Below, piece after piece: positions 7,901 through 13,900 of a DNA stretch of 64,000 nucleotides. The stretch spans positions 44,309,847 through 44,373,846 of the forward strand of contig CP154954.1 in NCBI GenBank assembly GCA_039621445.1. Reading direction: 5' to 3'. The translations under genes and the position numbers were made by a program. The notes below the pieces were generated by a model that saw only the letters and a list, made by a program, of their open reading frames with translations, was not told where the DNA came from and made no database searches. Positions within the stretch are counted from its first letter, which is position 1, and the number at the start of each line of letters is the position of its first letter. The DNA is from Euglena gracilis. Lineage: Eukaryota.

Positions 7901-10900
7901 CTGCGCAGCCAGAAACAACTTACCCAGAGTGGAAGTCACCCTGGCTTCTTAAGCCCCCCTGCCCTCATCATAAAACCTGTCATTATTGAATTGTTTGGAG
8001 ACAATGTCTCGGGTGGCAGTCCCCTCCCTGCCAACCAGGCCATTCCTTAAGGACTCCGTGGGGGGGGCACTGGCTAGCCATTTTCTTACACTGGGAAAAA
8101 TGGACTAGCTGGACCCCCCTCCCGGGGGGGGATTCAGGGGTGCAGACCCCTTTCCTCTGGCGCTGCGCTCCGAGGTGGAAACGAGGGCCTAATGGGTGTT
8201 TTTTTTTTTGCTGATTTTGTTCCAAAAAACCCCCAAACAGCCAAAAATGGGCATTTGAGGGTCCAAAAAAATCTAACCGCTTCGCGCCGGTCAGTGGAAA
8301 AATTTTCCGTAAGTTAGCCCTGCTGGCGAACCCCCACCCACCCCCAAGGATTTCCATTGGCCAAACTAGACTAGCTGCCTGGAGGGGGGGAGGGGTACTG
8401 CGAACCCTTAAGCAAAGGCCTGCCGCCAATTGAACCTGTCAATTTGCCCCTGAGAGTTTCAGCATTTTTTTTTTTGGCGAAAACCATCGAACTTTTCAAA
8501 AGTTTATGCATCATGCATATTTGACCAGAAAAATTCGGAAAAATTGCCACTTTTTGGGTGAAGGGCAACCCAGGCCAACTCTCACGGCGCAGGCCTCACA
8601 AAGCGTTGGCCTATAACACTCTTCATCGGAGCCATGAATCCTGCTGGCAGCTTCGCTCATCACAGCCCCACCGCAGTGGTGCCTCTTGCTTCTCCGAATC
8701 CCTGCGGAGCAGACTGGCGGTGCTTCGCAGGAGGCGAGGGGGGCAGGAAGGGACTCTCCAGCATGCCCTGGATGCTGTCCATGCACAGCATCAGCCAGAA
8801 GAAGGTGAACGCCAGCATGTACCCGTAGAACGGGCCCCACTTCCTGGAGTCATTGCGGGCTGTGGCTCCTGGCAGGCCCATCCCCGGGAAATGTCGACAG
8901 GCCAGCCAGTATCCAGACCCGGACAGTTTGTTGGGCGGACCTGCGGTTGGGGCGGACTCAATCAAAGGACCCGATTACACAGTCTCCTGGAGGGGTGGGG
9001 AGGAAGGGGCAGAACACCCAAAACATTGATGGATAGGGGAAAATTGATATCAAAGGCCTCGGAAAATTGTGGAAATTGCGGGAAAGTTGCGGAAAATTGC
9101 AGTTTTGGGAATTAGTACTTTTGCTGGAGGGTACTTGGAAAAAGTTCAAAAATTTGGCCATTTGCAATATAAGTGTGAATATTGAGCTGTTCATTTTTTC
9201 TTTAACAAAAAGTCTAAAAACATGATTTTTGTAATTTTGGGAACATGCTGATTCTGGAAATATGGAGTTTCTTGAGGAAAAAACCCAAAAATACAAACTT
9301 TGGTATGAGGCAAAATCTGGACGCGCAAAAAAAAATCGATATTATTTCCCAGCGGAAATTGGGGAAAGGCCTAAAAAAGGCCCAGATATTGCCAAATTTT
9401 GTCAAATTTTGTAAAATTTGGCAAATTTCGGCAAATTTGCAACAAAAACAACAACAAAAAGCACCTGGGTTCCCTCGTCAAAGACGTTCAATGAATGGCC
9501 GGAACTCATTTTGCCTGGCATCTCAGTTTCATGTGGAAAAATTGCAGAAGGGGGAAAAATGCAGAAATTGCAGAAAAATTGCAGATATTAATAGGCGGGT
9601 GGAGAAACTGCACAAGGGCCGGTCAAAAACTGCACTGCAAAAAACTGCAAAAAACTGCAAAAAACTGCAAAAAACTGCAAAAAACTGCACTTCAACAAAA
9701 AAATGGCGTAAACAAGCTGAAATGGTGTGCATATGCAAAATAACGTAAATTGCAACCACATGAGCAGGCCCCAATTCACCAAAATTTTCTTTGCACAGCT
9801 TTGAAATTGATGACGACAACAATGGAAGCAGTCAATCAAGGTACATTGTACATGATTTTTCATGCACGGGAATGCAAATCATTTGTTTGGATGCCGGTTC
9901 ACACCAGTTTCCTGCACCAAATTGGGTCTAGATCATCCTAAATTGAATGTCACGATGTGAGTGGGAGAAGCGCAACCCAATCCCTTATCGTCTCCATGGG
10001 AAGGTGGAGATCCTTCAGCAGCTGCATCAGGAATGCGGTGTGGTTGAGGCCTTGCTAATTTGTTACAAATCTCCAACACAAATGCCATGAACCACAGAGA
10101 AGGAATGGCAGGGATTGGGCCCACCATCTGGTCCGGGAAGAGGTCGTGGCAGATGTGGAACTGCAGCATTGCCAAGCTATTTTTCCTTCCTCTCCGCCAC
10201 TCAACAACACACACCCCACAAACAAAAGTGATCCAGTGTCTTGTAAAGCTTGGGTGGTCCAGAGGGAAAACTGCCGAATTCCTTCATCCATTCCCCTTCG
10301 GTGAACAAAAGAAAACCGTCAGATGTGACACCACATGCACAGGTTGGAGGTGGAGCAATTTTGGGTAGTGAGCCAAAATCCATCTGACTAACAAAGTCGT
10401 CCAGCAAAATGACCTCTTCTCGGTCATAGTCATCGAACAACACGGTTCCACGTGATCCATCACCCATGAGTGGTTATCGACATCGTCCGGACCGAAGACG
10501 ACACAGGCCATTCTGGTCTTCCCTGTCCCAGCGTCACCATACAGAACTACACCTTGTGCTTCCCAATTTTCCTAGAGAGCAACTTCAGCCAGTGCTCTTG
10601 GATGATGGGTGAATGCTTGGAAGTGATCCTGCAACAGCTCCTCCATCTTAGCATTGTGCTTGACCTCTTCCAAGTCTGTACCCTTGCCTTGTGAGGGCGT
10701 GTGAAAATCTTCCGAGACCTCGGCATTGGGTCATCCCCTTCGGGATCAAAAGTGATTGACAAAGCGGGATTGCACTGCCACCGCTTCTTCTCCATCTCCT
10801 GCCGGCGGTTGCGCACCTGTTATGGGCATGCATCTCTCTAATATTAAAAAATGCATGTACGCGTCAGCACTTCAGCGGCTGGGAGCAGGCTCCTTCGTCA

Positions 10901-13900
10901 AAACAAAAAACGTGGACAAAGAAACCTGGTTGGCCTTTTGACCAGCGTCTCCTCCGCGGCCTTCTTTCGGACAGACACAGCAGAAAACAAGAGCTGTGGA
11001 GGAAAAAAAATACAAAGCACCAAGAGGCAAGAGCCGACTGAATGCAGATGTCAATTGCATCAGAGGGGGCCAGAGCAAGGCACATGCACAAAAAATATGC
11101 ATGTCTAGGAATGCTGTGGCTTGTGGCTATATCTTTCCAGAAAGCATACAAATCAGGTATTGGGGGGGAAACTTTGTGGACTTGTCACCAAAACAACAAG
11201 CACCAAAAATAAACATCTTAGGTTTCCTCAAAAACTGGATTAAAAAAAAACTGCAAAAAACTGCACGTGTGCAGGTTTTTTCAGAAAAAATCTGCAAAAA
11301 AACTGCAAAAAACTGCAAAAAACTGCAAAAAGCCCAAAACATGAAAACTGCAAAAAACTGCAAAAACTGCACGGTGCATATTTTCCACCCCCCTGTATTA
11401 ATCCCCCCGGTTACTGTTTTCACTGAAAAATACCTTTAGTGACATATGGTGTTGTAAATTACAATTTTCAGATGATTTAGTGCTCATATCTATCAGACCA
11501 AAAAAACGGTGTGGCATTTCAGATGATTTTTTCTTTGCATTTACCGCGTCCCAACTTTCCAGAACAATGCCGTGCTTGTTTGCCCTGGGTGCGATCCATC
11601 CCTGCCCAACGCAGCAGCCCAGCTCCATTGACTGTCACATTTCTGTTCAGCGGCAACATGGGTGGCGTTGTGCCAAGTGGGGCTCACACCAACCCCCCCC
11701 CCCCCCGAGGAGGGCAGGGGTGCCGGGGCTGGGGCGGCGTGGCGGTGAGACACAGGGCGGCAAACAGCGGGGCGAAGCAGAACGCCATGGCGCCGATGGT
11801 CACCTTGCAGAACGTGCGCAGGGAGCACGGCGTGCCGTAGTCGGAGAAGACCCGCAGCCCCTCGCCGCCTTCCCGCACCTCTGGTGAACTGGAGGGGGGG
11901 GCCTTGACTAGCATGAGCAAACGGTAAGGGGACTTTGGCACGAAGGTGGTTTCAAATGACAGGTGTTCGCAAGGCTGAGGCAGTCACATTCTCATGCAAA
12001 ACAGCGGCATGCTCACAAAAATAATTAATTTCATTGAAAGAACACCTGCATCTGTCGTATACACAAAAACCAAAACTCACTCCAAAGAGTCGGTGGAAGT
12101 TGACAGAACTCCACATGGGCAGCTGAAAAATACTTCCGAAATCAGAAAGCTTTCTTTCTGGAGATAATGCAAATCCAACGTACCCCAATATCGCCAAAGA
12201 TGTCGGCAAACAGCATGACTGAAACACTGGCCACTGTGCCAGGTTGGAGGAAGGGCAAAGCCTAAGGCCATGTTGATGACGTTGTTGAATGGGACGGTGA
12301 CGAGCGGTGGAAAGATGCCAGAGAGGCGGAACAGATCCACGTGGTAGAACATGTCGGCGAACTGCGCGAAGATGTTGCCGATGATGACCTCCTTGTCCGG
12401 CTCGCTGGTCGCGGTGAGGTAGTGGCCCAGGCAGCGGAAATGGGGTCAGCGCGGAGCCATCTTGGGGGGGGGACGGGTAGTGCAGAGCTGGCTGGCGCCT
12501 ACGGTGTGTTCGTGCGTTGGCGGTGTTTTAGCGATCCCGCATATGTGCGTATACATATACATACACACACATACACACACACACACATGTGTGCATATAC
12601 ATAAACATACACACATGTATATATATACATACATATGTACATATACACGTACATACATATACATCCCGCATATATATATGTATATATGTATATATGTATA
12701 TATGTATGTATGTATATATGTATATATACGTATTATGTATATATATGGCAGCCTCCAACTAAATGGCCCCCCCGGGGGGGGGCCATTCAGTTGGATCAGG
12801 GGGTTCCAATTTTTTTTTGCGTTATTGATGGAATAGGGTTAGGGTTGCGACTTAGGGTTAGGGTTAGGCCTACCTTATAGATTAGTGTTTGGTGTACAAG
12901 TTAGGCCTGAAATTAGGCCGAATTCGTAACTCTAACCCTACTCCATCAATAACGCAAATTCTTTTTGGAACCCCCTGATCCAACTAAAGGGCCCCCCGGG
13001 GGGGCATTTGGTTGGAGGCTGCCATATATATGCGTCCCGGTGTTGTAATGGTTGTACACCCTCACAATGCACATCTGGCTTCAAGTCCTGGCAGCTACCC
13101 AATACTCTTGATCAATTTTTTTTATATCATAAAACCGTACCCATCATTCACACACGGGGGGAGAAACACCCAATCCACCTACGTCACGCTGGTTGGGATT
13201 TAAGAATATAGGCGGAGTCCACCAGGAACGTATCCGGCAGCTCCAGCTGTGACGGTCACAGGGTGCAGTGGGTCCCTGGGCCACAGAGAAGACCACACAT
13301 TCTGCCTGCGGAGGGGCCCATCCTGCAATGAGAGTTGCCTGCCCATGGCACTCATCCCCCGGGGTGCCACCTTCCTTTAAAAAAAGCCGCATGGTACCTT
13401 TTCTGTTGAAATTAAGTTGTGCCAATAAATGCGCGTGCAGCTCTATCGGACCAATTTTTGGCACACCAATTGGAAAATACCTGAAATGCAATACACACAA
13501 ACATATCCCAATATCAATTAAAATTAAATTGGAATAGGTCTGAATGGCAACTTCCCATGTGTAGGCAAAAAACTCAGACATCTGGCCAGCAGACAAAAAA
13601 AACACAGAAAAAGAGAATACAAAGAGGTTGTCTTTGTTGACATCAAAATTTTAGGGACCTTGGCCGGAGCATGACGTGGCAAGATATCATACTCATATAA
13701 TCATGTGGTCAAATAGTCATAGGGCATGCCCGTCCCACATTGGGCCCTGCTCCGGGTCCAGACCTCTCCGAACAGATGGACCGCCAGCCCGGACGCCTTG
13801 ATGCTCGCCAGGGTCTGCAGCGCCTGCTCCCGCCGCTGGTACGCCGCATTGAGGGAGAAGGACAGCGGGAACACCACGATGATCGAGTACAGCGTCGCCG

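What the first reader, a model, noticed from the sequence alone, without database searches (positions are those of the whole stretch)
9592..11395. CRESS-virus Rep fossil inside a TIR element, nested in another MITE, inside a 2.9-kb hairpin intron
Seen: QGKGTDL, Walker [13 protein letters not shown]...ILLDDF and VTSD in the order typical of circular Rep-encoding ssDNA virus Reps, broken by a stop and a frameshift. It lies between the AAAAACTGC arrays of a TIR element that itself interrupts a family C TIR. Inference: a past ssDNA virus or plasmid-like replicon of this protist lineage, either captured Pack-style or inserted afterwards.
Basis: partly seen in the sequence, partly recalled or inferred. 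Interest (0 to 1): 0.72.

Follow-up and report, generated by a model that had tools for sequence, protein, structure and literature searches.

The report
Dead circovirus-like Rep gene in Euglena
A broken piece of the replication gene of a small circular DNA virus or plasmid, with what looks like its replication-origin hairpin, lies inside a transposon-like repeat in nuclear DNA said to be Euglena; such viral fossils are known in other hosts.

Summary
On the minus strand at 10204-10730, three adjacent reading-frame pieces, split by one TAG stop and one frameshift, match circovirus-type Rep proteins. They are the three best of 1717 six-frame ORFs against a profile of 120 Reps and lie in collinear order. 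Read through with X at the breaks, they score 57 bits (E 1e-16) over profile positions 123-237 of 314: linker, Walker A and Walker B.

The HUH nuclease half, motif C, the arginine finger and a capsid gene were not detected. 'VTSD' as motif C is not supported.

The window's only TAATATTA (8 of 9 of the usual origin nonamer) sits in the loop of a 7-bp hairpin at 10827-10857, just upstream.

The fossil lies between imperfect 27-29-nt inverted ends (1 of 2000 shuffles as good) and AAAAACTGC arrays. The arrays run in direct, not inverted, orientation.

It is a new member of a known kind. My literature searches found no ssDNA-virus fossil reported for Euglena. This scan has noted CRESS Rep fossils in at least 18 other genomes, none in this one.

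The parts
9587..9613 (+). Left terminal inverted repeat of the 1.8-kb element, beginning with ATTAAT
   Evidence: Local alignment with the reverse complement of 11374-11402: 23 of 27 aligned positions plus a 2-nt gap, score 27; 1 of 2000 shuffles reach it
9625..9688 (+). Left subterminal array of AAAAACTGC units (6 exact copies)
   Evidence: Exact-unit positions 9625, 9640, 9650, 9660, 9670, 9680; none on the minus strand; blastn self-match to the right array in plus/plus orientation
10204..10473 (-). Rep piece 3: Walker B region ([15 protein letters not shown]) followed by an open but unrecognisable 60-codon tail
   Evidence: Profile positions 210-238, E 6.4e-4 among 1717 ORFs; tail unaligned; no hit alone in Pfam, PDB, IMG/VR or the word-indexed protein library
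10473..10571 (-). Rep piece 2: SF3-helicase Walker A (GDAGTGKT); the frame changes at its 3' end
   Evidence: Profile positions 175-200, E 1.2e-4; translations
10572..10574 (-). In-frame TAG stop between pieces 1 and 2
10575..10730 (-). Rep piece 1: linker / oligomerisation region starting at QGKGTDL
   Evidence: Profile positions 122-166, E 1.5e-3; BLASTP of P0001 against Rep P0008 gives 34% identity over 71 residues, E 4e-14
10827..10857 (.). Hairpin CATGCAT / 17-nt loop / ATGCATG whose loop holds TAATATTA (10839-10846): candidate fossil of the rolling-circle origin
   Evidence: It is the minimum-energy fold of 10815-10885 as DNA. It holds the only TAATATTA in 64 kb, against 0.21 expected. 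It is one of 2 hairpin-plus-near-nonamer sites in the window, against a mean of 0.43 in 30 simulated windows. Of 76 related IMG/VR genomes, 59 carry NANTATTAC in a hairpin loop, mostly close to the Rep start
11082..11104 (.). Second hairpin ACATGCA / 9-nt loop / TGCATGT, sharing its 3' arm and A-run with the first
   Evidence: DNA fold; direct repeat D7, 10846-10858 vs 11092-11104, 92%. Meaning unknown
11246..11370 (+). Right subterminal array of AAAAACTGC units (7 exact copies plus variants), same orientation as the left array
11374..11402 (+). Right terminal inverted repeat, ending with ATTAAT

Best explanation
This is a dead, partial copy of the replication-initiator (Rep) gene of a small rolling-circle replicon of the circovirus-like (CRESS-DNA) kind, lodged in nuclear DNA that earlier notes of this scan call Euglena gracilis. 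What survives is the middle third of Rep: the linker/oligomerisation stretch and the Walker A and Walker B parts of its superfamily-3 helicase. About 100 nt upstream lies a hairpin with a near-canonical origin nonamer. The nuclease half, the end of the helicase and any capsid gene are gone or past recognition, so it can do nothing now. The most likely history (inferred) is as follows. Double-stranded DNA of such a replicon was joined into the chromosome inside, or beside the core of, a non-autonomous inverted-repeat transposon. It then lost parts by deletion and picked up a stop and a frameshift. Shown: homology, order of motifs, breaks, TIR and arrays. Inferred: that the hairpin was the origin, that the donor was a virus and not a plasmid, that it replicated in this host lineage, and that it was inserted rather than captured by the transposon.
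For: P0001 (10473-10730, TAG as X) was searched against 1.84 billion representatives. It gave 6 hits at E<=1e-3. Five are long repetitive or multi-AAA proteins scoring by many weak stretches (best single domain 4.1-12.8 bits). The sixth, P0008 (285 aa, one stretch, query 13-75 to 109-179, E 7.9e-4), carries PF02407 Viral_Rep (2.4e-21) and PF00910 (6.4e-12). BLASTP of P0001 against P0008 gives E 4e-14. A profile built from the 120 listed of P0008's 139 relatives puts the three pieces at ranks 1-3 of 1717 ORFs, in collinear order. It gives 57.2 bits, E 1.3e-16, on the X-joined read-through. Of the 120 Reps, 117 hit the read-through and 38 do so at >=20 bits, with a median span of query 13-117. 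The 20 closest Reps as a profile hit PDB 7lar 'ATP-dependent helicase Rep' at 9.2e-86. Rep ORFs from 76 independent IMG/VR contigs hit 10694-10485 by tblastn, best 5.9e-10, and 32 ORFs hit at E<0.01. The origin-like hairpin is supported. The stretch is held at half or more of its sampled words by 14 run records of one organism from 12 study codes. I did not lay any of them.
Against: Pfam finds no Rep or helicase family in any single piece. Piece 3 alone finds nothing in PDB, IMG/VR or the word-indexed library. No HUH motif, no motif C, no arginine finger and no capsid-like ORF were found: among 260 non-Rep ORFs of related genomes the best hit is 23 aa at E 0.003, and Pfam gives nothing. Only 115 of 314 profile positions are therefore represented. 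The nonamer is 8 of 9 on either strand, the loop (17 nt) is longer than the usual 10-13 nt, and the fold is not unusually stable (z -0.52). One similar hairpin-plus-near-nonamer occurs elsewhere in the window (33522-33539). Against PDB, the best matches of P0001 are Cdc48/p97 AAA ATPases. The organism name rests on unchecked notes.
Confidence: 0.85

Rival explanations
1. The Rep fragment was not inserted here directly. The inverted-repeat element picked it up from another genomic copy or from episomal viral DNA (Pack-type capture or gap-repair filler) and may have carried it to other sites, so sibling elements with the same Rep piece exist.
For: The fossil sits centrally between a significant TIR and subterminal arrays, and only a fragment of the gene is present. 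There is a precedent: Liu et al. 2011 (PMC3198968, passages read) describe a repeated element in Tuber melanosporum with a Rep-like ORF, transposase ORFs and 37-bp TIRs.
Against: No second copy of the Rep piece or of this TIR family is in the 64-kb window. No look-alike stretch appears among this scan's notes. The neighbouring origin-like hairpin suggests a contiguous piece of a replicon, not a gene fragment. Insertion of viral DNA into repeats is the commoner route. The genome itself could not be searched.
Confidence: 0.25
2. It is a pseudogene fragment of a cellular AAA+ ATPase (Cdc48/p97-like), and the Rep resemblance is only the shared P-loop.
For: A PDB search with P0001 ranks Cdc48/p97 first (6chs_H, E 5.2e-5 summed; GVLLYGPPGTGKT against [13 protein letters not shown]). 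Three of the 6 library hits are multi-stretch proteins matching only around Walker A; Pfam, run on one of them (P0007), shows AAA domains.
Against: The AAA matches cover only query 42-78 at 11.5 and 11.2 bits per domain, and at most 12.8 bits per domain for the multi-stretch library hits, of which only P0007 was shown to carry AAA domains. The two pieces without the P-loop each hit the Rep profile on their own, at the right positions. Rep matches run across all three pieces at up to 41.6 bits. Pfam AAA (PF00004) does not hit any piece.
Confidence: 0.03
3. The donor was a plasmid-like CRESS replicon (pCRESS-type, possibly from a bacterium, organelle or prey) and not a capsid-bearing virus of the euglenid.
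For: No capsid remnant was found. Craig 2023 (PMC10288648, passages read) summarises that CRESS-DNA virus Reps and pCRESS plasmid Reps form one clade with moves in both directions. This scan has noted plasmid-type Rep fossils in other genomes.
Against: Capsid genes of these viruses are too diverse and the flanks too decayed for absence to count. All near relatives retrieved lie on 1-7 kb contigs, many in a viral collection. The closest solved structure is a circovirus-type Rep (Craig 2023, read, names 7LAR as PCV2 Rep).
Confidence: 0.2
4. It is a remnant of a Rep-encoding transposon (Helitron or Replitron).
For: Both groups encode HUH Rep proteins, and Replitrons are weakly linked to CRESS Reps (PMC10288648, abstract and passages).
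Against: What survives here is the SF3-helicase half. By that paper, Replitron transposases have no fused helicase and Helitrons carry an SF1B helicase. No HUH domain is present to compare.
Confidence: 0.02

Closest known systems
Endogenous CRESS-DNA virus Rep elements of eukaryotic genomes (Liu et al. 2011, PMC3198968; Entamoeba and Giardia elements of Kinsella et al. 2020, PMC7493932)
   Same: A Rep-derived sequence integrated in a nuclear genome, truncated and broken by a stop and a frameshift, sitting in non-coding or transposon DNA. Liu et al. report such insertions into transposons and list Entamoeba, Giardia, Blastocystis and a diatom among protist hosts.
   Different: The host lineage: neither paper mentions euglenids (0 occurrences of 'Euglen'). 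Only about a third of Rep is recognisable here and no capsid, whereas whole virus genomes are integrated in Entamoeba and Giardia. A possible origin hairpin is retained.
Circovirus-type Rep (PDB 7lar/7las; Pfam PF02407 + PF00910)
   Same: Linker beginning QGK..DL, Walker A and Walker B with Rep-like spacing, aligned to profile positions 123-237. The nearest Reps as a profile match 7lar at 9.2e-86.
   Different: No HUH nuclease domain, no motif C, no arginine finger. The fossil sits on a long branch (1.28 against a median of 0.52), with no close relative among 195 Reps.
Geminivirus-like TIR transposon of Tuber melanosporum (Liu et al. 2011)
   Same: A Rep-like ORF inside an element bounded by terminal inverted repeats.
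   Different: The Tuber element has transposase ORFs and many >95% identical copies. Here no transposase was found, copy number is unknown, and the Rep is circovirus-like.
Replitrons (Craig 2023, PMC10288648)
   Same: Eukaryotic (plant, algal, protist) genomic elements whose protein is distantly linked to CRESS Reps.
   Different: Replitron proteins keep the HUH domain and lack a helicase. This fossil is the reverse.

Membership tests
CRESS-DNA Rep (HUH endonuclease + oligomerisation linker + SF3 helicase) | HUH endonuclease motifs I-III in the N-terminal half | tested here: not met
   No ORF of the window hits profile positions 1-120 at E<6. The upstream frame 10819-10700 gives -2.0 bits. The 'MEKKRW' resemblance to Rep N-termini is by eye only.
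CRESS-DNA Rep (HUH endonuclease + oligomerisation linker + SF3 helicase) | Linker / oligomerisation stretch after the nuclease (QGKRxDL ...) | tested here: met
   Piece 10730-10575 hits profile positions 122-166, E 1.5e-3 of 1717 ORFs; 34% identity to P0008 over 71 aa.
CRESS-DNA Rep (HUH endonuclease + oligomerisation linker + SF3 helicase) | SF3 helicase Walker A and Walker B at Rep-like spacing | tested here: met
   Profile positions 175-200 and 210-238; one continuous alignment of 57.2 bits.
CRESS-DNA Rep (HUH endonuclease + oligomerisation linker + SF3 helicase) | Helicase motif C (TSN) and arginine finger | tested here: not met
   The tail 10398-10204 does not align. The invariant K-G-G, T..N and R-R columns of alignment A1 have no counterpart. 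'VTSD' is not placed on motif C.
CRESS-DNA replicon (virus or plasmid) | Origin hairpin with a NANTATTAC nonamer in the loop, near the Rep start | tested here: inconclusive
   A 7-bp stem with a 17-nt loop holds TAATATTA, 8 of 9 on either strand. 59 of 76 related genomes have the exact motif in a hairpin loop. Roughly 0.4-2 such near-matches are expected per 64 kb.
CRESS-DNA virus | Capsid gene beside Rep | tested here: not met
   260 non-Rep ORFs of related genomes: best tblastn hit 23 aa, E 0.003. Pfam finds nothing in 8 flanking ORFs. Low power.
Endogenous viral element | Viral sequence contiguous with host chromosomal DNA and disabled | tested here: met
   It is flanked by repeats and coding-like ORFs of the window, and carries a stop, a frameshift and truncations.
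TIR DNA transposon / MITE | Terminal inverted repeats | tested here: met
   9587-9613 vs 11374-11402; 1 of 2000 shuffles as good.
TIR DNA transposon / MITE | Target-site duplication | tested here: inconclusive
   ATTAAT stands at both ends but is its own reverse complement, so it may be TIR or duplication.
TIR DNA transposon / MITE | Multiple copies in the genome | not testable with these tools
   No genome is held. There is no second copy in the window.
Classical AAA+ ATPase (Cdc48/p97-like) | Homology beyond the Walker A loop | tested here: not met
   Matches cover only query 42-78, at 11.5 and 11.2 bits. PF00004 is not found in any piece.
Replitron / Helitron | HUH transposase without a helicase (Replitron) or with an SF1B helicase (Helitron) | tested here: not met
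   The surviving part is an SF3-type helicase of CRESS Rep kind. Family definitions are from PMC10288648.

The most novel reading that the evidence does not exclude
The 1.8-kb inverted-repeat element is one member of a transposon family that took up a rolling-circle replication module (Rep plus its hairpin origin) from a euglenid-infecting circovirus-like virus. Sibling copies, some less decayed, then exist in the genome. That would give both the first ssDNA virus lineage tied to Euglenozoa and a case of a cut-and-paste element carrying a viral replication module.
Probability: 0.1. Interest if true: 0.7.

Novelty: new member of a known kind. Interest (0 to 1): 0.4.

Why it matters
Viral fossils are one of the few ways to tie the thousands of orphan CRESS-DNA viruses from metagenomes to hosts; Kinsella et al. 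2020 used them this way for Entamoeba and Giardia. The Euglena giant-virus paper (PMC12455990, passages read) states that Discoba has a single known virus-host pair, and it holds none of my ssDNA or CRESS search terms. My searches found no paper pairing Euglena with Cressdnaviricota or with ssDNA endogenous elements. A Rep fossil in a euglenid nucleus would therefore be a first hint that such replicons once reached this lineage. On its own it is a single decayed fragment with no present function.

Tried and rejected
Searches that gave nothing:
- Pfam on the six separate pieces gave only weak generic P-loop hits.
- Piece 3 (P0002) found nothing in IMG/VR, in PDB, or in the word-indexed protein library at near or longer lengths.
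- Searching the window's own genome failed: none is held.
- Look-ups of this scan's notes by place, words and sequence gave nothing for this locus.
- The protein atlas turned P0001 away because it holds an X. I did not resend it.

Reads and runs:
- The run search listed no holder on record as RNA: 'no RNA holder listed'.
Intron splicing, expression and copy number therefore stayed untested.

Features sought and not found:
- Capsid: 260 non-Rep ORFs of related genomes by tblastn, plus Pfam on 8 flanking ORFs, gave nothing credible.
- HUH and C-terminal remnants at very permissive thresholds: none.
- Pfam on six neighbouring minus-strand ORFs, to name the host gene: nothing.
- Pairing of the intron ends is not better than shuffles.

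Tree: on 104 columns and 196 rows, the fossil sits on a long branch with four unnamed Reps (support 0.87-0.88). With no named references this gives no family placement.

Considered and rejected:
- Greater-than-unit-length integration of a 1.65-kb circle, as an explanation of the direct arrays. The inverted ends lie outside the arrays, so a transposon fits better.
- AAA+, Helitron and Replitron readings (see rivals).

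
Full report
**What is there**

Reading downwards from 10730:
- One frame gives ...[40 protein letters not shown].
- A TAG stop follows at 10574-10572.
- The same frame continues [33 protein letters not shown].
- The frame then changes near 10473-10480.
- The new frame runs ...[30 protein letters not shown]..., followed by 60 more open codons to a stop at 10201-10203.

**Is it a Rep?**

Single pieces are too short for curated libraries. Pfam gave only weak generic P-loop hits. Piece 3 alone found nothing in IMG/VR, PDB or the word-indexed protein library.

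An exhaustive HMMER search of 1.84 billion representatives with pieces 1+2 (P0001, stop as X) returned 6 proteins at E<=1e-3:
- Five are long repetitive or multi-AAA proteins that score by summing many weak stretches. Their best single domains are 4.1-12.8 bits.
- The sixth, P0008, is a 285-aa protein hit in one stretch (query 13-75 to residues 109-179, 36 bits, E 7.9e-4). It carries Pfam Viral_Rep (2.4e-21) and RNA_helicase (6.4e-12).
- BLASTP of P0001 on P0008 gives 34% identity over 71 residues, E 4e-14.

P0008 has 139 relatives at E<=1e-5. The 120 listed nearly all carry both Pfam domains and come from 1-5 kb contigs.

I built a profile from those 120 (314 positions) and ran it over all 1717 stop-to-stop ORFs of at least 20 codons in the window.
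- The three best ORFs are exactly the three pieces.
- They hit collinear profile positions 122-166, 175-200 and 210-238, at E 1.5e-3, 1.2e-4 and 6.4e-4. The next ORF scores E 0.77.
- Joined in a script with X at the stop and at the frameshift, they give one alignment of 57.2 bits, E 1.3e-16, over positions 123-237.
- 117 of the 120 Reps hit this read-through, 38 of them at 20 bits or more, typically across query 13-117.

An independent set supports this. Rep ORFs from 76 IMG/VR contigs hit 10694-10485 by tblastn with E down to 5.9e-10. The 20 nearest Reps as a profile match PDB 7lar, 'ATP-dependent helicase Rep', at 9.2e-86. Craig 2023 names 7LAR as porcine circovirus 2 Rep.

**The cellular-ATPase rival**

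A PDB search with P0001 does rank Cdc48/p97 first (E 5.2e-5 summed). Those alignments cover only query 42-78, the Walker A neighbourhood, at 11.5 and 11.2 bits per domain. The two pieces that lack the P-loop each hit the Rep profile at the expected places. I therefore reject the AAA+ reading.

Helitron and Replitron readings fail on helicase type. By Craig 2023 (abstract and passages), Replitron proteins have no helicase and Helitrons carry an SF1B helicase. What survives here is the CRESS-type linker plus SF3 helicase.

**What is missing**

- Nothing in the window matches the nuclease half (profile 1-120) at E<6.
- The frame just upstream (10819-10700) scores -2.0 bits. It reads [10 protein letters not shown]..., which resembles Rep N-termini by eye only.
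- The open tail after Walker B does not align. Columns that are invariant in the nearest Reps (K-G-G, T..N of motif C, R-R) have no counterpart.
By eye, 'LLFTE..GEW' is at least as good a candidate.
- No capsid remnant appeared, though power for that is low.

Only about 115 of 314 Rep positions are recognisable. That fits deletions better than even decay, since the recognisable part has just one stop and one frameshift in 177 codons.

**A possible origin**

About 100 nt upstream of the recognisable Rep part, 10827-10857 folds as CATGCAT / 17-nt loop / ATGCATG. This is the minimum-energy structure of 10815-10885 as DNA.

Evidence for an origin reading:
- The loop holds the only TAATATTA in the 64-kb window, against 0.21 expected. 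That is 8 of 9 of the nonamer on either strand.
- Among the 76 related IMG/VR contigs, 59 carry an exact NANTATTAC in the loop of a perfect stem of at least 6 bp.
- Those hairpins mostly lie within about -50 to +200 nt of the Rep start, on either strand.

Evidence for caution:
- Allowing one mismatch, the window has two hairpin-plus-nonamer sites, against a mean of 0.43 in 30 simulated windows. The chance of one landing this close to the Rep piece is roughly one in a hundred.
- The loop is longer than the usual 10-13 nt, and the fold is not unusually stable (z -0.52).

I take the hairpin as supportive, not proven. A second hairpin at 11082-11104 shares its 3' arm and A-run with the first. I cannot say what it means.

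**Setting**

- AAAAACTGC occurs 15 times in the window, 13 of them in two clusters (9625-9688 and 11246-11370). All are on the + strand, so the arrays are direct repeats.
- Outside the arrays there is a real, imperfect inverted repeat: 9587-9613 against 11374-11402, 23 of 27 positions plus a 2-nt gap, with 1 of 2000 shuffles as good.
- Both ends carry ATTAAT. Being palindromic, it cannot be assigned to the TIR or to a target duplication.
- No transposase-like ORF was found.
No second copy exists in the window to show an empty site, so I could not test the nesting.
- Coding-like minus-strand ORFs lie on both sides (about 8700-8935 and 11740-11880), which fits an intron.
- The stretch is held at 0.55-0.62 of its sampled words by 14 run records of one organism label from 12 study codes. 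I did not lay them.
- Earlier notes of this scan call the genome Euglena gracilis. I did not check this.

**Mechanism and history**

The fossil has no function now. The most likely course (inferred) is that double-stranded DNA of a circovirus-like rolling-circle replicon, at least Rep with its origin, was joined into the chromosome within a non-autonomous inverted-repeat element. It later lost its nuclease half and helicase end by deletion.

My odds are about 55% for direct insertion, 25-30% for capture or carriage by the transposon, and the rest for other routes. The tools at hand cannot settle this.

Virus against plasmid-like donor also stays open, at about 80:20. No capsid was found, and CRESS virus and pCRESS plasmid Reps form one clade.

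A FastTree on 104 columns puts the fossil on a long branch (1.28 against a median of 0.52), next to four unnamed Reps with support 0.87-0.88. Without named references this gives no family.

**Known or new**

- Rep fossils of ssDNA viruses in eukaryotic genomes, protists included, have been in print since 2010-2011. Some are inserted into transposons, and one sits inside a TIR-bounded repeat in Tuber (Liu et al. 2011, passages read).
- Whole CRESS genomes are integrated in Entamoeba and Giardia (Kinsella et al. 2020, passages read). Neither paper mentions euglenids.
- The Euglena giant-virus paper holds none of my ssDNA or CRESS terms.
- No paper in the library pairs Euglena with Cressdnaviricota. 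The single paper with 'Euglena gracilis', 'endogenous viral elements' and 'ssDNA' is, by its title and abstract, about RNAi responses in multicellular eukaryotes (search listing only). Supplements of these papers were not read.
- This scan has noted CRESS Rep fossils in at least 18 other genomes, none in this one.

It is thus a new member of a known kind. It is of moderate interest as a first hint of ssDNA replicons in this lineage.

Noticed in passing
window 11082-11104 and 10846-10858: A second 7-bp hairpin (ACATGCA / 9-nt loop / TGCATGT) lies 246 nt from the origin-like hairpin and repeats its A-run plus 3' arm (92% over 13 nt). It may be an iteron-like duplicate or chance.
   Followed up: partly
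window 33522-33539: The only other hairpin in the window with a near-nonamer in its loop (TTCCCCC / GACCGAATAATATTTGTT / GGGGGAA; AAATATTAT on the minus strand). No Rep-like ORF is nearby in the profile scan.
   Followed up: no
window 8660-8974, 11684-11983, 12077-12445 (minus strand): Long open, hydrophobic, coding-like ORF pieces flank the repeat-rich stretch and look like exons of a membrane protein. Pfam names none of them.
   Followed up: partly
window 9036-9110, 9380-9445, 9533-9590: Further short-unit arrays (AAATTGCAG-like and GCAAATTT-like) lie left of the element. GTGGAAAAATTGCA at 9533-9546 is complementary to the right TIR core (11375-11388) as well, so the two array families look related.
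   Followed up: partly
window 7480-7660 and 12540-12760: Long TG/CA- and TA/CA-rich microsatellite-like tracts give spurious long ORFs made of C, V, Y, I and H.
   Followed up: no
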